Below, piece after piece: positions 5,700 through 37,241 of a stretch of DNA of 64,000 bases; the first letter of the stretch is position 1; each line of letters begins with the position of its first letter. The stretch lies in the sequence record NC_028925.1; one strand, given 5' to 3'. The position numbers and the translations under genes are program-made. The notes beneath the pieces are model-generated. The model worked only from the letters and a program-made list of their open reading frames with translations. It was not told the origin of the DNA and made no database searches. Origin of the DNA: Escherichia phage vB_EcoM_VR25.

Positions 5700-5979
5700 A
5701 GGAAATCACTCCTTGGTAGTTCCAGGTTTTAATAACTTCTTCATCGCTGGCGGTTGCATACGGGACATAAACCTGAATAAGGAAACCTGTGTCATCGAAA
5801 GAGAAATAAACCGTCGGTTTGATTCCATGAATCTCAGATAGAGCATAGATATCTTTAAGGTCTTCTTCTTTATCAGCAAAGAATTTCGGGTCCAAGTCAC
5901 AGTCATGGAAGTACCATTCATCACCGAACTTGTCCCACGCGGTCCAATTAGTAGCTACATATTCTTCAAAACGTTTCAT
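5680..5979 (-). CDS. Hypothetical protein, 99 aa
   Basis: Track ORF; acidic. Confidence 0.45.
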   Translation of the reverse strand: MKRFEEYVATNWTAWDKFGDEWYFHDCDLDPKFFADKEEDLKDIYALSEIHGIKPTVYFSFDDTGFLIQVYVPYATASDEEVIKTWNYQGVISCGPKLD

Positions 5980-6191
5980 TCTTTCACCTTCAGCATTTTT
6001 GCAATGGTATTATGAATAGCCTGGATTCTTTTGTTGAATTCAGAGCTTTCGAGGCCAGGATTAGTGCTTAACCAACCGATGATAACAAACAGCAAACCAA
6101 ACGGGATAGCCAGAATAAGCAGACAAACGATGAACAACACAAGCGTTATGTTTGCCAGAATATCTGCTGTAGCATTACGAAATTTATTCAT
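5976..6191 (-). CDS. Small membrane protein, about 71 aa
   Basis: ATG at 6191 preceded by AAGGG; one strongly hydrophobic helix (LANITLVLFIVCLLILAIPFGLLFVIIGWL). Confidence 0.45.
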   Translation of the reverse strand: MNKFRNATADILANITLVLFIVCLLILAIPFGLLFVIIGWLSTNPGLESSEFNKRIQAIHNTIAKMLKVKE

Positions 6192-6305
6192 ATTTACCCT
6201 TAATTGATTAACCAAGCATTGATAAACACTAAACTATACTGCGAATAAAATTCTGGACCAAAATGAAAAATCATATCATTTATAGTATCCATAATATAAT
6301 TCAAT

Positions 6306-20686: not shown

Positions 20687-21259
20687 TCAGCTTGTCAATT
20701 CGAGCCAATGTTTCCTGCATAAAGATACGTACGATTCATTCCCACCGACTAACACTTGCTCGCCGTCCTTTACAGCAGCACCGTCGATTACTCGAGCGGT
20801 CATGGTTGCTTTCCGGCCGCAATGGCAGACGCCCTTTAATTCAACCAGTTTATCCGAAATAGCCAGAAGTCTGGCTGAACCGGGAAATAACTGACCCCGA
20901 AAATCTGTTCTTAGCCCGTAACACATAACGGGGATATTGTAATTATCAACCACTCGTGCTAACTGGTCAATTTGCTCTGGTAACAAAAATTGAGCTTCAT
21001 CAACCAGGACACAATGGATATCCTTTTGAGACTCGGCCCATTTATAGAATTCAAACAGGTTCATGTCGGCCGTTACCAGGTTTGCTTCCTGGCTAATACC
21101 AATACGTGATTTAATTTCAGATTCCGAGTCCCGATTATCAATAACAGGTTTTAGCAAAAGCACACTCATTCCACGCTCTTTATAGGAATAAGCTGCAGTC
21201 AGCAATGAAGCTGTTTTGCCTGCATTCATTGCTGCGTAATGATAAATTAAACTCGCCAT
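20687..21259 (-). CDS. tk: Thymidine kinase
   Basis: 190 aa, ATG start; MASLIYHYAAMNAGKTASLL (P-loop) and CHCGRKA zinc motif; very similar to T4 Tk. Confidence 0.95.
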   Translation of the reverse strand: MASLIYHYAAMNAGKTASLLTAAYSYKERGMSVLLLKPVIDNRDSESEIKSRIGISQEANLVTADMNLFEFYKWAESQKDIHCVLVDEAQFLLPEQIDQLARVVDNYNIPVMCYGLRTDFRGQLFPGSARLLAISDKLVELKGVCHCGRKATMTARVIDGAAVKDGEQVLVGGNESYVSLCRKHWLELTS

Positions 21260-31596: not shown

Positions 31597-31821
31597 TTAG
31601 CAGCTGCTCGGGTACCAGATTTTACCATCCGGGTGAGCAACAAAGGTGCGTCCAGCTTCTTCGCCATAACAAGAGCTATTCAACCAGTCTTCAAGACGAA
31701 CTTCACCATCATAATCGTCGAGCTCAATACCGAAATCTTGAGCAGAAGCCATATCTTTAACTTTCTTATACAACGCAGCCAGTTCAAGAGCTGCTTTTTC
31801 TAATTCATTAATATCAGACAT
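31597..31821 (-). CDS. Small acidic protein, 74 aa, C-terminal ...WYPSSC (family member 1)
   Basis: ATG start; ends in Cys; shares C-terminal W-x-x-SS-Cys pattern with the four ORFs upstream. Confidence 0.5.
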   Translation of the reverse strand: MSDINELEKAALELAALYKKVKDMASAQDFGIELDDYDGEVRLEDWLNSSCYGEEAGRTFVAHPDGKIWYPSSC

Positions 31822-31830
31822 TTTTATTCC

Positions 31831-32058
31831 TTAGCAAGACATAGAGGAGTTAAACCAGAAACCTTTACCTTCTGGGATACCATAATCACCGTGAATCCAG
31901 TCATATTTTTTATATTCTGGGCTGCCCGCAGGAATATATCGCTGAAGACTGTCAGCATATACATGAAAGTATTCACCAGTTTTATCGGCCAGCTGTTCAC
32001 CTTCACAGATTAGTGCACGGATTTGGTCTTCAATTTCTTTAACAGTTTTAGTAGTCAT
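31831..32058 (-). CDS. Small acidic protein, 75 aa, C-terminal ...GFWFNSSMSC (family member 2)
   Basis: ATG start; stop TAA then GGAATAAAA and the next ATG. Confidence 0.5.
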   Translation of the reverse strand: MTTKTVKEIEDQIRALICEGEQLADKTGEYFHVYADSLQRYIPAGSPEYKKYDWIHGDYGIPEGKGFWFNSSMSC

Positions 32059-32066
32059 TTATTTCC

Positions 32067-32264
32067 TTAGCATTCGTAAGAGGAGGACACCCAAGAGGTA
32101 CCGCTAATAGTAATGCATCCATTATAAAGCGTGATATGCCTGTCTAAGTCACGAACACCGCTAATATAGATATCAGCTTCTTCACGTTCTTCTTTACAAA
32201 TCTGGATAACATTTTCAATAGCCGCTTTAGCGGTACGGATTGCACAATCTAATTCACGAGACAT
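32067..32264 (-). CDS. Small acidic protein, 65 aa, C-terminal ...SWVSSSYEC (family member 3)
   Basis: ATG start; stop TAA then GGAAATAA and the next ATG. Confidence 0.5.
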   Translation of the reverse strand: MSRELDCAIRTAKAAIENVIQICKEEREEADIYISGVRDLDRHITLYNGCITISGTSWVSSSYEC

Positions 32265-32273
32265 AATATTTCC

Positions 32274-32555
32274 TTAACATTCAGCAGAAGAGGACACCCA
32301 ACCACCTTCTGCAAGGTCTGTGGTGTAGTCATGTTGGTTAACAATAGCATATTGGGCTTCACCGTAGTTTTCCCAATGTTCAAGGTCAGCTTTCAGGGCG
32401 CCAGGAGAATAATAGTCACCGCCCATACCGCGAGCAGGGTATATATTAAAATGAGTCTCATATTTGTCTGCAATTTCCTCAGCGCGACGAATAGCTTCAT
32501 GGATTTCTTTTACTGCGGCCAGAAGCTCTGGTTGGTTATGGTTATCATTCATCAT
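32274..32555 (-). CDS. Small acidic protein, about 93 aa, C-terminal ...GGWVSSSAEC (family member 4)
   Basis: ATG at 32555 (MMNDNHNQ...) just after the upstream stop; track ORF extends further at an alternative start. Confidence 0.5.
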   Translation of the reverse strand: MMNDNHNQPELLAAVKEIHEAIRRAEEIADKYETHFNIYPARGMGGDYYSPGALKADLEHWENYGEAQYAIVNQHDYTTDLAEGGWVSSSAEC

Positions 32556-32556
32556 A

Positions 32557-32847
32557 TTAACACATCTCAGAAGAGGAGACCCAAGCACCAACGGTAACAA
32601 CCCCATTTTCAACTTTTCCACCGTTGGCTTCAATATGATGGGTAAACCATTCAGAGCATTCATAACCGACTGGGTGGTATGTACGACCTGTGCCGTAATC
32701 GCCGGTGCTGAATTCAATGCCATATTCATCAGCGATTTCTTCACAATGTGTTTCAATTTCAGAGGTCTTATTTAGAAGAGAATAGATAGCTTTTTCTGCA
32801 GATTTCTCATCATAATACTTAGGGATAGCGATTTCAATTTTATTCAT
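32557..32847 (-). CDS. Small acidic protein, 96 aa, C-terminal ...GAWVSSSEMC (family member 5)
   Basis: ATG start; same C-terminal motif. Confidence 0.5.
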   Translation of the reverse strand: MNKIEIAIPKYYDEKSAEKAIYSLLNKTSEIETHCEEIADEYGIEFSTGDYGTGRTYHPVGYECSEWFTHHIEANGGKVENGVVTVGAWVSSSEMC

Positions 32848-33290
32848 GATTTACATTCCTTAATAAAGGTTTCAAGGTCATTACGTTTTGTTTTGTTCAG
32901 GAACTTATTATACTCAGCCATTGCCAAAGCGTATCTCTTACGGATGGGAGCATTCAAGGCGTTTGTGTAACAGATATCATACACAACCGGGATAAAATAG
33001 GCCACAACAGCCGGAGCAATTATCATAAAGAAGCCCATCTCAATAGGCATGACTCCCTCGATTGCAGCCATAACCGTTGTCATTACCAGGCCAACCAGGC
33101 CACCGAGCATAGCGGTGGCAATCCCTAATAATAAATTGGCACCAATATCATATTCAGCCAATTGATAAACATGTGATGCAAGACTAGGCCGTTCCATTAC
33201 GAACCTCCTTGATAAATTCTTCTGCACATTTAATTTTGTGCTCTTTTTGTAGGGAAACGCATTTTTGTTCCCACTCTTTAACTCGACCAC
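32844..33290 (-). CDS. Membrane protein, up to 148 aa, C-terminal ...ETFIKECKS
   Basis: Two hydrophobic helices; real start probably the internal Met near 33197 (MERPSLASH...). Confidence 0.45.
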   Translation of the reverse strand: MVELKSGNKNAFPYKKSTKLNVQKNLSRRFVMERPSLASHVYQLAEYDIGANLLLGIATAMLGGLVGLVMTTVMAAIEGVMPIEMGFFMIIAPAVVAYFIPVVYDICYTNALNAPIRKRYALAMAEYNKFLNKTKRNDLETFIKECKS

Positions 33291-33567
33291 GATATCCTTT
33301 ATTCATATGATTTTGATGCCACACATTTATCAATATCATACTCAGGACTGTAATAAAAGGAGCTGCAATTATTAGTGCCCAGGCGACTCCAACACTAATG
33401 ATATTCATATCCCCACAAAGCACCATCATTATAACCCCAACGATGCACATGGACAGAGCTCCAAATGGAGGCATAAGGTCTTTATCAATCTTGTCTGCGT
33501 ACACAAATTTTTCTGGTTTACCTGGCAGATATAACGTTCGCATTTTGAACCCCTTTAGCGTATTCAC
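33184..33567 (-). CDS. Membrane protein, up to 127 aa, C-terminal ...EEFIKEVRNGTA
   Basis: Two hydrophobic helices; start may be the internal Met MRTLYLPGKPEK. Confidence 0.45.
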   Translation of the reverse strand: MNTLKGFKMRTLYLPGKPEKFVYADKIDKDLMPPFGALSMCIVGVIMMVLCGDMNIISVGVAWALIIAAPFITVLSMILINVWHQNHMNKGYRGRVKEWEQKCVSLQKEHKIKCAEEFIKEVRNGTA

Positions 33568-34072
33568 GGCATTCTTTAATAAAACGATTAAGCTTACGCT
33601 GCTGTTTACGACTTTCTAATGTATATTCGTCGGCCAAAATAGTAAGCTCATCTTTATCGTAATTTTTAATATCAGAGTAAGATGGTCTACGGTCAACCAT
33701 TCCAAATACATCGCCATTTTCTAGCGCTACATAACATACTAAATGGTAATCATCATCTGCTATATTAAGAAGCACACAATCATCGCTCTCGTTTAACGCA
33801 TACACAGAATAGCGTAATCCAGCGAATTCCACTCGTTGAATACCCAGATTTACATCAATAATTTCCAAGGCATCTGCGAAAGAAAGGTCTTCAGCTAAAG
33901 CAAAAATAAAAGGCAATTTTGTAGTATCGCCACGGCTAGTTGTTCTTCTTAAGAAATCATTGGAATAACCCAAGTCACCGCGGATTCTGTAAAGAACTGT
34001 ATTAGTTTCAGTAGCAAGGCCACTACCGCCAAACCAGTCTACATTTGATATAAGGTCAGTATATAAGCTCAT
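33518..34072 (-). CDS. Hypothetical protein, about 184 aa, C-terminal ...NRFIKECREYAKG...
   Basis: ATG at 34072 (MSLYTDLISN...) preceded by GGGAGAGGAG SD just after a hairpin; acidic, no hydrophobic helix. Confidence 0.45.
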   Translation of the reverse strand: MSLYTDLISNVDWFGGSGLATETNTVLYRIRGDLGYSNDFLRRTTSRGDTTKLPFIFALAEDLSFADALEIIDVNLGIQRVEFAGLRYSVYALNESDDCVLLNIADDDYHLVCYVALENGDVFGMVDRRPSYSDIKNYDKDELTILADEYTLESRKQQRKLNRFIKECREYAKGVQNANVISAR

Positions 34073-34092: not shown

Positions 34093-34109
34093 AGGGGGCA
34101 AAGCCCCCT
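34093..34109 (-). promoter_or_regulatory. Intercistronic GC hairpin between the PspA-like gene and the next ORF
   Basis: AGGGGGC-AAA-GCCCCCT between the stop at 34115 and the SD of the ORF starting at 34072; U-run is on the plus-strand side. Confidence 0.4.
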
Positions 34110-34114
34110 TTATC

Positions 34115-34708
34115 TTACTTAAGTGAATTGATGTATTCTTCAATGTCAGCGGATGTGGTATCCACACCAACCTGTGGACCTTTGAAGGTTTCAACACGCA
34201 TCAGAGTGTCTTCAATATCAATCTTAGTCAATGCAGCGATTTCAACAACATCATCTGCGGTTGCAATACCTAGGGCAGACACCTTACGGGTTTCGCGGAT
34301 GTATTCCAGTTTAACAGCTAGTTCCTGACGAGAGTCATCCAGCTCTTTAACTTTCAATTTAATTTCATTACGCATTTCAACATAATCATCTGCCTTCTTA
34401 CGAAGTTGTTTAGCAGTGCGACGATACAGGAGACCCAGTTTAGCATGGACCTGGACATCAGCACCATCAGCAATCAGTTTACGAATTTCACGCTCTTTTG
34501 AAGCGGCGAGCTGGTCTTTTTCATTCGCTAACTCGCGGATGCGTTTTTCTTCATTAACAGACTTAACGTGGGCAGTCTGGAGCTCAGTAATCTTGTCAAT
34601 CAGGGTAGAAGCCGCTTTAGTATATTGGTCTTCAATAGACAGGTTTTGTGCCATTGCAGTACCCAGTTTGGAGCGGATGAATTCAACAAGTTTCTTTAAA
34701 GTATTCAT
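34115..34708 (-). CDS. PspA/IM30-like coiled-coil protein, 197 aa (tentative)
   Basis: ATG start; long heptad-like helical sequence of PspA-like length; assignment from composition, not a verified match. Confidence 0.35.
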
Positions 34709-34784
34709 GGTATTTCCTTCAGTTGGTTAATGTTTTATTATCCAGGGAACATACTATCATGTTCCCGTTAAAGCGTACACTGAT

Positions 34785-35090
34785 TTAGATTTTATTTTCC
34801 TGCACACCATAGTAAAGTTCATCAGACACGATATTCAGGATGCGGCGAACATATTCATCATGGTAACGACATTCAAAATCAAATTCAACTGTAGTTTCTG
34901 CTTCACGAGTAAACTTAACAACCACATTCAGGTGGTTAACAACTTTAGTAAAGCTGTCAGTAAAGAATTCTTTTGCTACTGCTTGTTGTACTTGTACTTT
35001 GAACTTAGTGTTGCGAATCATGTTTTCAGCTGATGCGAAATTACCAGTTTTATCAAAGTCAACAAGCGCCAGGTTGATGATGAATTTCAT
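34785..35090 (-). CDS. Hypothetical protein, 101 aa
   Basis: Track ORF, ATG start preceded by the conserved leader. Confidence 0.45.
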   Translation of the reverse strand: MKFIINLALVDFDKTGNFASAENMIRNTKFKVQVQQAVAKEFFTDSFTKVVNHLNVVVKFTREAETTVEFDFECRYHDEYVRRILNIVSDELYYGVQENKI

Positions 35091-35171: not shown

Positions 35172-35615
35172 TTAAATTTCAAATTCTTTGCGGAAGTTGG
35201 AAGCATAAGATTGAACAGATGCTTTGTTGAATCCAAACTCACGCACAATCATATCAATAACAGCTCTGCGAGCAGCACCATTAGACATATTAACAGTTTT
35301 GAACATATCATAGCATAAATCTTTGTTGCTCATACCGGAGCGTTTAGGTGCCTTACGCTCAGCTTTTGGTTCAGCTTTAGGAGTAGGTTTAACTTCTGGT
35401 TTAACCTGCCCATCATTCAGACCTTTAAAAATTTTACCTGCCAGAGTTGCCAGTTTAGCAGCTTCACCACGAGTGATACCAAATACTGCCGGGTTAAATG
35501 AAATACCTTCAGCTGTCAGACGTTTGAAGAACATACGCGCTGCGGATTGCGCTTCAGCTTCAGAAGAGTTGTTTAATGCCAGTTTAACGTACTTAACCAG
35601 TTTTGAAGTTTTCAT
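35172..35615 (-). CDS. Hypothetical protein, 147 aa, C-terminal ...VQSYASNFRKEFEI
   Basis: Track ORF; C-terminal 35 residues paralogous to ORF 36068..36493. Confidence 0.5.
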   Translation of the reverse strand: MKTSKLVKYVKLALNNSSEAEAQSAARMFFKRLTAEGISFNPAVFGITRGEAAKLATLAGKIFKGLNDGQVKPEVKPTPKAEPKAERKAPKRSGMSNKDLCYDMFKTVNMSNGAARRAVIDMIVREFGFNKASVQSYASNFRKEFEI

Positions 35616-36067: not shown

Positions 36068-36493
36068 TTATTTTTGAGCTTTGCGGAAGTTGGAAGCATA
36101 AGACTGAACAACAGTCTTTTTGATATCATGGGTGGTAACCAGAACATCAATCAGAGCGCGGCGTGCTGCATTATCATTCATATCAATTTCTGCAAATGCC
36201 TGGAAGCAAATGTCACGGGCGTTACCAGATTTGGACTGGATTTTTTCTTCTTTAACTTCTTCAATTGGGAATTCAATCATTTCAGCTTGGATTAATTCAA
36301 TGATGGATTCTTTTGACTGTTTGGTGTTTACCTTCAGTTCAGAATTAAGGGACTTAGCGATGGCAACAATCTGGGTTGAAGTCAGATGGATAAGTGCATC
36401 TTCACGAATACAGATTTCACATACTTCGTCGGCAACCATTTTGTTAGTGATGCGGGTAACAGAGAATGCAGAGGTCAGGGTCAGAAAGTTCAT
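36068..36493 (-). CDS. Hypothetical protein, about 141 aa, C-terminal ...VQSYASNFRKAQK
   Basis: Internal Met (MNFLTLTSAF...) consistent with the promoter cassette at 36544-36574; paralogous C-terminus to 35172..35615. Confidence 0.45.
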   Translation of the reverse strand: MNFLTLTSAFSVTRITNKMVADEVCEICIREDALIHLTSTQIVAIAKSLNSELKVNTKQSKESIIELIQAEMIEFPIEEVKEEKIQSKSGNARDICFQAFAEIDMNDNAARRALIDVLVTTHDIKKTVVQSYASNFRKAQK

Positions 36494-36957: not shown

Positions 36958-37033
36958 TGGTCGAGACAGTAGGGATCGAACCTACGACCTAGGACTTAGA
37001 AGGTCCTTGCTCTTCCTTCTGAGCTATGCCTCG
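36958..37033 (-). tRNA. tRNA-Arg (anticodon UCU), CCA encoded
   Basis: Hand-folded cloverleaf: acceptor CGAGGCA/TGTCTCG, D-stem GCTC/GAGC, anticodon stem AGGAC/GTCCT with loop CTTCTAA, T-arm GTAGG-TTCGATC-CCTAC, discriminator A. Confidence 0.85.
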
Positions 37034-37167: not shown

Positions 37168-37241
37168 TGGTGGCCCTGGGTGGAATCGAACCACCATCCA
37201 GCGATTATGAGTCGCTCGCTTGACCGTCCAGCTACAGGGCC
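37168..37241 (-). tRNA. tRNA with CAU anticodon (Met, or Ile if C34 is modified), CCA encoded
   Basis: Hand-folded cloverleaf: acceptor GGCCCTG/CAGGGCC, anticodon stem AGCGA/TCGCT with loop CTCATAA, T-arm GGTGG-TTCGATT-CCACC, discriminator A. Confidence 0.8.

What the first reader, a model, noticed from the sequence alone, without database searches (positions are those of the whole stretch)
34115..34708. PspA/IM30-like coiled-coil protein encoded upstream of membrane-protein genes
A 197-aa, largely helical, charged protein of PspA-like length is followed on the same strand by two 2-TM FIKEC proteins and an FIKEC-tail soluble protein. A phage membrane-stress protein beside small membrane proteins could control envelope integrity, lysis timing or resistance to membrane-targeting abortive-infection effectors. 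The PspA assignment is from composition only.
Basis: inference. Interest (0 to 1): 0.45.

Follow-up and report, generated by a model that had tools for sequence, protein, structure and literature searches.

The report
T4 e.6: phage-encoded PspA-like protein
This gene is the ortholog of phage T4 gene e.6, and profile comparisons show it is a very divergent relative of the bacterial membrane-stress protein PspA/Vipp1, a link noted once in a 2021 genome announcement but never tested, so T4-like phages appear to carry their own membrane-protecting protein whose role in infection is unknown.

Summary
The ORF is real: window 34115-34708, minus strand, 197 aa, with no transmembrane (TM) segment. It lies in a Dhakavirus (T4-like) genome and is the ortholog of T4 e.6 (74.6% identical, phrog_1203, "unknown function").

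The PspA guess holds.
- The single sequence hits nothing in Pfam or PDB.
- A 53-member family profile puts Vipp1/PspA at the top of the PDB, collinear from residue 1 (E 8e-5). Vipp1 scores 27.9 bits against at most 12 for 3000 shuffles.
- hhalign gives 90.6% probability; reversed or shuffled templates give at most 4.6%.
- Two distant family members pass Pfam's own PspA_IM30 threshold.
- AlphaFold predicts an N-terminal helix plus a long hairpin, and Foldseek's top eight hits are Vipp1.
- A 2021 announcement (PMC7862958) reported HHpred 99.9% to PspA for a 64%-identical ortholog.

The C-terminal third is shorter and only partly alignable. No PspB, PspC or PspF homologue is adjacent.

e.6 is followed by a conserved GC hairpin, then by e.5, whose F-[IV]-x-x-C-R tail recurs in small 2-TM proteins. 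The e.5 link is near-universal; the 2-TM link is frequent but not obligatory.

In T4 the protein is made, and knockdown causes no defect in laboratory growth. Function is inferred: inner-membrane and proton-motive-force (PMF) maintenance. Verdict: a divergent member of a known family, moderately interesting.

The parts
34115..34708 (-). CDS of the T4 e.6 ortholog (197 aa), a divergent PspA/IM30-like protein
   Evidence: ORF list. It is 74.6% identical to T4 e.6 and matches phrog_1203 at E 4e-84. The homology to PspA/Vipp1 rests.
34643..34702 (-). Codons 3-22: predicted N-terminal amphipathic, basic helix, the counterpart of PspA/Vipp1 helix alpha0 (membrane-binding helix)
   Evidence: AF2 predicts helix 3-22, at low pLDDT of about 50. 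HMM and hhalign align it residue for residue with Vipp1/PspA residues 1-22. The hydrophobic moment is 0.36, against 0.42 for PspA alpha0.
34274..34636 (-). Codons 25-145: long helical hairpin (helices 25-80 and 86-145), the counterpart of PspA alpha1 and alpha2/3
   Evidence: AF2 pLDDT is 87-98 across most of it and about 79 at its C-terminal end. Foldseek superposes it on Vipp1 6zvs_A at rmsd 3.1 A over 122 columns, TM-score (target) 0.69. It aligns collinearly with Vipp1.
34118..34273 (-). Codons 146-197: short, family-specific C-terminal region with three short predicted helices. Partly alignable to the start of PspA alpha4; otherwise not matched
   Evidence: AF2 predicts helices 151-160, 166-173 and 186-196, with pLDDT 50-65 through 151-180 and 79-91 for 181-197. 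hhalign extends to residue 176, pairing [11 protein letters not shown] with PspA LDEAMARFESF. The Pfam model matches family members only up to HMM position about 143-151 of 220.
34715..34719 (-). Shine-Dalgarno AAGGA, 7 nt upstream of the e.6 ATG
   Evidence: Read from the sequence. T4 has the same AAGGAAATAC context.
34093..34109 (-). GC-rich stem-loop (GGGGGC-UUU-GCCCCC, about -13.8 kcal/mol) 6 nt after the e.6 stop, between e.6 and e.5. Read as a transcript-end or mRNA-stabilising hairpin
   Evidence: A hairpin of -13 to -21 kcal/mol sits in the same place in 45 of 46 related loci, with different stem sequences. The 46th, L046, has a cut-off match and is not informative. The T4-type equivalent is listed as a terminator in PMC5931544.
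33518..34072 (-). e.5-like soluble protein (184 aa) with tail motif RFIKECR, the near-constant downstream neighbour of e.6
   Evidence: phrog_8788 at E 1e-114. No TM segment. The next ORF after e.6 carries [FYW][IVL]xxC[RK] in 40 of 45 loci. F164 and C168 are invariant in 16 diverse homologues. No Pfam or PDB match.
33184..33543 (-). e.4-like small membrane protein (119 aa, 2 TM) with tail EFIKEVR
   Evidence: phrog_2604 at E 7e-45. Hydropathy analysis.
32844..33197 (-). e.3-like small membrane protein (117 aa, 2 TM) with tail TFIKECKS
   Evidence: phrog_2330 at E 7e-45. Hydropathy analysis.

Best explanation
The gene encodes the Dhakavirus ortholog of T4 e.6. This is a phage-specific, very divergent member of the PspA/IM30/Vipp1 family, the bacterial branch of the ESCRT-III superfamily.

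Shown here:
- homology over residues 1 to about 176;
- a predicted N-terminal basic amphipathic helix followed by a long helical hairpin;
- conservation across T4-like phages of enterobacteria and Aeromonas;
- a conserved hairpin directly after the gene;
- a near-constant downstream partner gene, e.5.

Taken from the literature: in T4 the mRNA is early and the protein accumulates in the middle period. Knockdown has no effect on laboratory growth.

Inferred mechanism. Like PspA and Vipp1, e.6 binds the cytoplasmic face of the host inner membrane through its N-terminal helix. It assembles into oligomers or carpets that seal or stabilise stressed membrane and so preserve the proton-motive force that phage production needs. 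A plausible rationale is that T4-type phages shut off host transcription, so the host cannot induce its own psp operon and the phage supplies the effector itself. The stress could come from DNA injection and superinfection, from leaky holin during lysis inhibition, or from membrane-depolarising host defence effectors.

More speculative:
- e.5 and the small 2-TM proteins e.4/e.3 share an F-[IV]-x-x-C-[RK] C-terminal tail. They may be its partners or membrane anchors, analogous in function but not homologous to PspB/PspC or LiaI.
- The hairpin after e.6 may keep e.6 expression higher than that of the downstream genes.
For: Identity:
- Dhakavirus context and T4 e.6 orthology.

Homology to PspA/Vipp1:
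- HMM of 53 family members against PDB: 8 of the top 9 hits are Vipp1/PspA, best E 8.2e-5, query 1-146 aligned to target 1-147.
- Vipp1 scores 27.9 bits, against a mean of -3 and a maximum of 12 for 3000 residue-, heptad- or block-shuffled copies, and -2.5 when reversed.
- hhalign against a PspA/Vipp1 alignment gives probability 90.6%, E 1.3e-6 over 169 columns. The reversed template gives 3.6% and 30 block shuffles at most 4.6%.
- P0073 (39.0 bits) and P0067 (35.1 bits) exceed Pfam's PF04012 gathering score of 33.9.
- Both are full-length phrog_1203 members, at E 3.5e-65 and 1e-52.
- P0073 aligns directly with the window protein at E 2e-12 and sits on a T4-like contig.
- Published HHpred gives 99.9% to PspA 4WHE_A for Metamorpho gp163 (PMC7862958), which is 64% identical to the window protein.

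Structure:
- AF2 model with mean pLDDT 80.7; most of the hairpin is above 90.
- The Foldseek top 8 are all Vipp1.

Expression and dispensability:
- PMC9697503 supplement and PMC11879866 supplement.

Synteny and hairpin:
-.

Canonical PspA is essentially absent from phage records: 2 metagenomic contigs only.
Against: - The window protein alone gives no PspA hit in Pfam, NCBIfam or PDB. The 26 closer relatives give only 9.6 bits to Vipp1. The signal therefore depends on distant family members.
- The C-terminal quarter is shorter than in PspA and only partly alignable. The helices that mediate ESCRT-III-type polymerisation (alpha4/alpha5) are not demonstrated.
- The N-terminal helix is modelled with low confidence, pLDDT about 50.
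- No PspB, PspC, PspF or LiaI homologue is adjacent.
- Knockdown of e.6, e.5, e.4 or e.3 in T4 gave no fitness defect, so any role is conditional.
- Membrane binding, oligomerisation and PMF protection are all inferred, not shown.
Confidence: 0.6

Rival explanations
1. e.6 is a PspA mimic that acts on the host Psp system rather than on the membrane. It would bind PspF, PspB/PspC or host PspA, for example by co-polymerising as a dominant negative, to silence or redirect the host response.
For: Homology covers helix alpha1, the region with which E. coli PspA contacts PspF (established knowledge of the Psp system, not tested here), and it covers the hairpin. The divergent, shortened C-terminus could fit a non-polymerising decoy.
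Against: Identity to E. coli PspA is only about 11%, and the family profile scores cyanobacterial Vipp1 higher than the host's own PspA: 27.9 against 11.0 bits. This argues against a tuned mimic of the host protein. T4-type phages shut off host transcription early (established knowledge), so controlling PspF-dependent transcription would bring little. The family occurs in phages of Aeromonas, Serratia, Providencia and others, whose Psp systems differ.
Confidence: 0.12
2. e.6 is a membrane-remodelling or scaffolding protein used for a phage-specific step rather than for generic stress protection. Candidate steps are control of holin triggering and lysis inhibition, sealing of the injection site or superinfection exclusion, and organising the membrane-associated assembly site. 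It would act together with e.5 and the tail-motif membrane proteins.
For: e.6 lies in the e (lysozyme) region, next to several small membrane proteins. Linkage to e.5 is strict. ESCRT-III-family proteins remodel membranes (established knowledge). The protein accumulates in the middle period.
Against: There is no phenotype on knockdown. The 2-TM neighbours are missing from 13 of 45 loci. e.5 has no recognisable domain. Nothing links e.6 to t, rI, rIII, imm or sp.
Confidence: 0.2
3. e.6 is an unrelated coiled-coil protein. The resemblance to PspA would then be convergent, reflecting helical composition and heptad periodicity. The database label 'host specificity protein' might point to another role.
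Against: Shuffles that keep composition, heptad register or 7-residue blocks never approach the real score. The alignment is collinear from Met1 with essentially one indel. Vipp1/PspA outrank the many other coiled-coil chains in the PDB search. Two family members pass Pfam's curated threshold. An independent HHpred run gave 99.9%. No evidence was found for the 'host specificity' label.
Confidence: 0.04

Closest known systems
PspA / IM30 / Vipp1 / LiaH family (Pfam PF04012; bacterial ESCRT-III superfamily)
   Same: Profile-level homology over about 170 residues starting at Met1. An N-terminal amphipathic helix is followed by a hairpin of two helices of about 55-60 residues. Size is similar (197 against about 220 aa). 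The protein is soluble with no TM segment and is encoded next to small membrane proteins.
   Different: It is encoded by a lytic phage under phage early/middle expression. Identity to E. coli PspA is about 11%. The protein itself falls below Pfam detection. The C-terminal part is shorter and family-specific, so alpha4 is truncated and alpha5 uncertain. There are no PspF/PspB/PspC or LiaI/LiaF partners. Instead there is e.5 plus the tail-motif membrane proteins.
T4 gene e.6 (phrog_1203) and Klebsiella phage Metamorpho gp163
   Same: Direct orthologs: 74.6% and 64% identity over the full length, the same position between the tRNA/e.7-e.8 region and e.5, and the same trailing hairpin. The PspA link was reported for gp163 by HHpred (PMC7862958).
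   Different: None of substance. The upstream genes differ between Dhakavirus and T4. Database records still say 'hypothetical protein' or 'host specificity protein'.
Eukaryotic/archaeal ESCRT-III (Snf7/CHMP, CdvB)
   Different: No sequence-level match to Snf7 models among those reported. No Vps4-type ATPase partner was recognised among the neighbouring genes examined. The resemblance is much weaker than to Vipp1/PspA.
LiaH-LiaI and PspA-PspB/PspC effector-anchor pairs
   Same: A PspA-type soluble protein is encoded with small membrane proteins that could recruit it. This is an analogy, based on established knowledge of these systems. P0073 gives a weak collinear match to the LiaH model, E 0.005.
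   Different: e.4 and e.3 have no detectable similarity to LiaI, PspB or PspC. They are missing from 13 of 45 loci. The constant neighbour is a soluble protein, e.5, of unknown fold.

Membership tests
PspA/IM30 (PF04012) | Significant match of the protein itself to the curated family model | tested here: not met
   The window protein has no PF04012 hit at E<=1. None of the 26 closer relatives shows one among the 25 families listed. There is no NCBIfam hit.
PspA/IM30 (PF04012) | Family-level (profile or transitive) homology to PspA/Vipp1 | tested here: met
   The A2 HMM ranks Vipp1/PspA first in the PDB, at E 8.2e-5. Shuffle controls give 27.9 bits against a maximum of 12. hhalign gives 90.6%, against at most 4.6% for controls. 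P0073 and P0067 pass the gathering score and are phrog_1203 members. Window protein against P0073 gives E 2e-12. Published HHpred gives 99.9%.
PspA/IM30 (PF04012) | N-terminal amphipathic helix alpha0 (membrane binding) | tested here: inconclusive
   A helix is predicted at 3-22 and aligns with Vipp1/PspA 1-22. The hydrophobic moment is 0.36, against 0.42 for PspA, with net positive charge. However, pLDDT is about 50 and membrane binding is untested.
PspA/IM30 (PF04012) | Long alpha1-alpha2/3 helical hairpin | tested here: met
   AF2 predicts helices 25-80 and 86-145, with pLDDT 87-98 over most of the hairpin. Foldseek superposes them on 6zvs_A at rmsd 2.8-3.1 A over 122 columns.
PspA/IM30 (PF04012) | C-terminal helices alpha4/alpha5 used for polymer contacts | tested here: inconclusive
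   hhalign reaches only the start of alpha4, at residue 176. Pfam matches end at HMM position 143-151 of 220. AF2 shows three short helices, of which 151-160 and 166-173 lie in a low-confidence stretch.
PspA/IM30 (PF04012) | Assembly into rings, rods or carpets on membranes, and protection of PMF | not testable with these tools
   This needs purified protein, electron microscopy, liposome assays and membrane-potential assays.
Psp/Lia operon context | Adjacent PspF/PspB/PspC or LiaI/LiaF-type partners | tested here: not met
   The neighbours have no such Pfam or NCBIfam hits. They belong to phage-only PHROGs of unknown function.
ESCRT-III proper (Snf7, PF03357) | Match to Snf7 models and a Vps4-type ATPase partner | tested here: not met
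BAR domain | Sequence or specific structural match to BAR/F-BAR/I-BAR | tested here: not met

The most novel reading that the evidence does not exclude
e.6, e.5 and the small membrane proteins e.2/e.3/e.4 form a phage-specific, Psp-like membrane-maintenance module. The invariant C-terminal F-[IV]-x-x-C-[RK] tail would be a shared docking peptide that recruits the e.6 polymer to the inner membrane. This would let T4-like phages hold the proton-motive force against holin leak or membrane-depolarising host defence systems after host gene expression has been shut off. It would be the first functional ESCRT-III-superfamily system of a bacteriophage.
Probability: 0.15. Interest if true: 0.75.

Novelty: new member of a known kind. 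Interest (0 to 1): 0.5.

Why it matters
T4 is the best-studied virulent phage, yet about half of its genes have no known function. e.6 is conserved in more than a thousand sequenced T4-like phages and is still annotated as hypothetical.

Recognising it as a PspA/Vipp1 relative gives a concrete, testable idea. These phages may bring their own inner-membrane repair or stabilising protein because they silence the host's stress response. That touches lysis timing, lysis inhibition, superinfection, and resistance to abortive-infection systems that kill by depolarising the membrane.

It would also extend the ESCRT-III superfamily to bacteriophages. It offers a small, divergent, naturally C-terminally shortened variant for structural comparison.

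The value is limited by three things:
- the homology has already been noted in print;
- knockdown shows no phenotype in the laboratory;
- the function remains an inference.

Tried and rejected
- Single-sequence searches of the window protein against Pfam, NCBIfam and PDB gave only weak coiled-coil noise.
- The profile of 26 close relatives (A1) did not reach PspA in the PDB or among the top-listed Pfam families. It found only e.6-type proteins among 1.84 billion representatives: 46 clusters, no canonical PspA.
- hhalign of the family against a single PspA sequence aligned only the first 46 residues, at probability 27%. It needed a template alignment.
- The PspA homologue search returned only relatives at least 86% identical, so the template profile is shallow.
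- The afdb50 fold library was unavailable.
- The search for related loci with the 53-sequence alignment failed because no stretch was conserved enough. A1 was used instead.
- Full-text searches on 'e.6' mostly returned noise. 'PspA' + 'ESCRT-III' + 'phage-encoded' and 'PspA' + 'T4-like' found nothing.
- A profile of 16 e.5 homologues found nothing in the PDB or Pfam.
- I considered that the FIKEC tail might be only a by-product of an embedded ribosome-binding site. In e.4 and e.3 the K-E codons (AAGGAG, AAGGAA) are indeed the Shine-Dalgarno sequence of the next, overlapping gene. In e.5 the motif lies about 30 nt upstream of the next start. The invariant F and C, and the Providencia-phage versions (YIRHCRGE and others), are not explained by this. 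It was rejected as the sole explanation.
- The label 'host specificity protein' used by some records has no support that I could find.

Full report
**What is there**

The window belongs to a T4-like phage of the genus Dhakavirus. A 2.9-kb stretch around the finding is 93-95% identical to Escherichia phages vB_EcoM_VR20, VR26, JS10-type phages and Shigella phage SP18.

It is 197 aa with an ATG start preceded by AAGGA, and it ends in TAA. It has 35 basic and 35 acidic residues and no hydrophobic segment. It is 100% identical to a VR20 protein and 74.6% identical to T4 e.6. tblastn finds relatives in 1109 phage records, from phages of Escherichia, Klebsiella, Shigella, Aeromonas, Enterobacter, Yersinia, Citrobacter, Salmonella, Serratia and others. 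It matches phrog_1203, "unknown function", at E 4e-84.

Three genes follow on the same strand:
- an e.5-like soluble protein, 33518-34072, with tail RFIKECREY...;
- an e.4-like 2-TM protein, 33184-33543, with tail EFIKEVRNGTA;
- an e.3-like 2-TM protein, 32844-33197, with tail TFIKECKS.

**Is it PspA-like?**

Simple searches say nothing. The protein alone has no significant Pfam, NCBIfam or PDB match. A profile of 26 relatives at 47-84% identity (alignment A1) does not help either.

A search of 1.84 billion representative proteins with that profile found only 46 clusters, nearly all about 200 aa (a few are fragments). So the family is narrow. That search did supply members at only 18-30% identity. 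Adding them gave a 53-sequence alignment (A2), and this changed the picture.

- **PDB ranking.** Against all PDB sequences, the A2 profile places Vipp1/PspA chains in 8 of the first 9 positions. Examples are 8qfv at E 8.2e-5, 9eom at 2.1e-4, 7o3w at 4.5e-4 and 6zvr at 3.1e-3. The alignment runs from residue 1 to about 146 of both proteins with essentially one small indel.
- **Shuffle controls.** Long helical proteins attract false matches, so I scored Synechocystis Vipp1 residues 1-152 against 3000 decoys. These kept composition, heptad register or 7-residue blocks. The real sequence scores 27.9 bits. The decoys average -3 with a maximum of 12, and the reversed sequence scores -2.5.
- **hhalign.** A2 against a PspA/Vipp1 alignment gives probability 90.6% and E 1.3e-6 over 169 columns, e.6 1-176 against PspA 1-172. 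The reversed template gives 3.6%, and 30 block-shuffled templates give at most 4.6%.
- **Pfam threshold.** Scanned singly, five of the 53 family members hit Pfam PspA_IM30. P0073 (39.0 bits, E 8.9e-10) and P0067 (35.1 bits) exceed the curated gathering score of 33.9. These are not stray bacterial PspA proteins. Both match phrog_1203 end to end, at E 3.5e-65 and 1e-52. P0073 aligns directly with the window protein, including the family-specific C-terminus, at E 2e-12. It also sits on a T4-like contig beside UvsX and a gp41-type helicase.

**Structure**

AlphaFold2 with A2 gives mean pLDDT 80.7. The predicted helices are 3-22 (low confidence), 25-80 and 86-145 (a hairpin, pLDDT 87-98 over most of it), then short helices at 151-160, 166-173 and 186-196.

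With either model, the first eight Foldseek hits in the PDB are all Vipp1, at E 1e-3 to 2e-2. PspA and archaeal CdvB2 rank lower. The hairpin superposes on Vipp1 6zvs_A at about 3 A over 122 columns.

**Prior art**

A full-text search for 'PspA' together with 'e.6' found one paper, the 2021 genome announcement of Klebsiella phage Metamorpho (PMC7862958). It states that gp163 is a T4 e.6 homologue and that HHpred aligns it with E. coli PspA (4WHE_A) at 99.9%. gp163 is 64% identical to the window protein over all 197 residues.

The GenBank record nevertheless calls gp163 "hypothetical protein". PHROGs and the 2025 CRISPRi-ART T4 tables list e.6 as unknown. Some records and UniRef call it "host specificity protein", for which I found no basis.

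Canonical PspA is almost absent from phage records. tblastn with E. coli PspA finds two metagenomic contigs only.

The homology is thus independently confirmed and not new. It has not been propagated into annotation, and it has not been studied.

**How it differs from PspA**

- Identity to E. coli PspA is about 11%. The profile scores cyanobacterial Vipp1 higher than the host's PspA. This is an old, divergent lineage, not a recent capture from the host.
- The last 50 residues are shorter than in PspA. hhalign reaches only the start of helix alpha4, pairing [11 protein letters not shown] with LDEAMARFESF.
- The terminal helix has the pattern D-[IV]-x-x-Y-[IL]-x-S-L-K, with Y192 nearly invariant. 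It may correspond to alpha5, but that is my reading and not a test.
- No PspB, PspC, PspF or LiaI relatives are nearby.

**Context**

I examined 45 related loci from several genera; many are closely related, so they are not independent.
- The ORF immediately after e.6 carries [FYW][IVL]xxC[RK] near its C-terminus in 40 loci.
- One of the next six ORFs does so in 42.
- A TM protein with that tail is present in 24 loci by the strict pattern and in 32 by a relaxed one.
- No such TM protein is present in 13 loci, including close Dhakavirus relatives and the Aeromonas phages.

In 16 very divergent e.5 homologues (12-21% identity to the window protein), the only invariant positions besides Met1 are N94, F164 and C168, and R169 is nearly invariant. 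The tail is therefore the most constrained part of e.5. e.5 has no Pfam or PDB relative.

T4 itself has the tails KFVKECREY (e.5), KFVKESRCK (e.4) and EFVIDCRKI (e.3). A Providencia phage whose e.6 is 32% identical has YIRHCRGE, YIKQCRGE, FVDKCRGKK and FVDECRRRL.

Directly after the e.6 stop codon, 45 of 46 loci have a stable GC-rich stem-loop of -13 to -21 kcal/mol, often with a UUCG loop. The 46th, L046, has a cut-off match and is not informative. The stems differ in sequence between genera, so the structure rather than the sequence is kept (window 34093-34109). One paper lists the T4-type equivalent as a terminator.

**Expression and requirement (literature)**

In T4, e.6 mRNA is classed as early and the protein as middle. 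It is therefore made and detected by mass spectrometry (PMC9697503 supplement).

dCas13d knockdown of e.6, e.5, e.4 or e.3 gave no fitness defect under standard conditions (PMC11879866 supplement).

**Most likely mechanism**

Shown:
- homology to PspA/Vipp1;
- the predicted alpha0-plus-hairpin architecture;
- conservation across T4-like phages;
- expression in T4;
- linkage to e.5.

Inferred:
- e.6 binds the inner membrane through its basic amphipathic N-terminal helix.
- It oligomerises there and stabilises damaged membrane, preserving proton-motive force.

The phage may need its own copy because it shuts off host transcription, so the psp regulon cannot be induced. That rationale rests on established knowledge of T4, and the link to e.6 is mine. 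The lack of a laboratory phenotype fits a conditional role, for example under superinfection, during lysis inhibition, or on hosts with membrane-depolarising defences.

More speculative is that e.5 and the tail-motif membrane proteins are partners or anchors, and that the hairpin keeps e.6 more abundant than the downstream genes.

Rivals are a decoy acting on the host Psp proteins, a phage-specific remodelling role, and chance coiled-coil resemblance. The controls largely exclude the last.

**Verdict**

The protein is a divergent, phage-borne member of a known family. The homology has been noted once in print, and the function is open. I score interest as moderate.

Noticed in passing
window 31597-32847, minus strand: There are five consecutive small soluble ORFs of about 65-96 aa. 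The second is listed as a 160-aa TTG ORF, but its relatives are about 93 aa. All end in W-x-(x)-S-S-x(0-2)-C at the very C-terminus: WVSSSEMC, WVSSSAEC, WVSSSYEC, WFNSSMSC and WYPSSC. They match phrog_899 and phrog_4882, both of unknown function. The same tail family follows the e.5-e.3 genes in 27 of 45 related loci.
   Followed up: partly
An e.2-like 2-TM protein (195 aa; phrog_2203/phrog_35263) ends in SFIEECRK. A 109-aa protein (phrog_9796) carries LFLEYCRS. Of 231 ATG-started ORFs of at least 50 aa in the window, five carry the tail within their last 28 residues. Four of these lie in this region; the fifth, at 20687-21259, is probably chance.
   Followed up: partly
window 33205-33210 and 32856-32861, minus strand: In e.4 and e.3 the Lys-Glu codons of the FIKE motif read AAGGAG and AAGGAA. 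They sit 7-8 nt before the ATG of the next, overlapping gene. They therefore double as its Shine-Dalgarno sequence, a sign of translational coupling. This does not hold for e.5.
   Followed up: yes
window 34093-34109, and L001-L048 just after the e.6 stop: A stem-loop is kept in structure but not in sequence after e.6 in 45 of 46 loci. Stability is -13 to -21 kcal/mol, many loops are UUCG, and most lack a U-tract.
   Followed up: yes
window 35172-35615 (-) and 36068-36493 (-): Two upstream genes (147 aa, phrog_18416; 141 aa, phrog_9997) are paralogues. They share a C-terminal domain of about 60 residues (...ARRA-ID--V------K--VQSYASNFRK...). They replace T4 e.7/e.8 at this position.
   Followed up: no
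window 36958-37033 (-) and 37168-37241 (-): ARAGORN finds only two tRNA genes, Arg(TCT) and Met(CAT). The related phage JS10 is annotated with three (Met, Asn, Arg) and T4 with eight in the equivalent region.
   Followed up: no
L001 (T4) 5947-6255 and the ORF after it; L018-L020: The T4 record's e.2 (102 aa) is followed by a separate 63-aa ORF ending in NFITECRKLK. Other T-even genomes have one 162-aa 2-TM protein with that tail. e.2 therefore looks split or mis-annotated in this T4 record.
   Followed up: no
Database names of e.6 orthologues: Several GenBank records and UniRef clusters name this protein 'host specificity protein'. One record labels the neighbouring genes sulfurtransferase, head outer capsid protein, VirB3 and so on. 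None of these labels is supported by any search made here, and they look like annotation artefacts.
   Followed up: partly
window 34789-34816 (-) and about 34742-34765 (-): There are promoter-like sequences upstream of e.6. One is a sigma-70-type match, TTTACT-16-TAAAAT (9 of 12). The other is a possible T4 middle-promoter arrangement, GCTTTA-12 nt-TAGTAT. T4 has GTTTAC-18-TATTAT at the equivalent place. These are consensus matches only. The sigma-70 scan found 15 sites in the region against 15.4 expected by chance.
   Followed up: no
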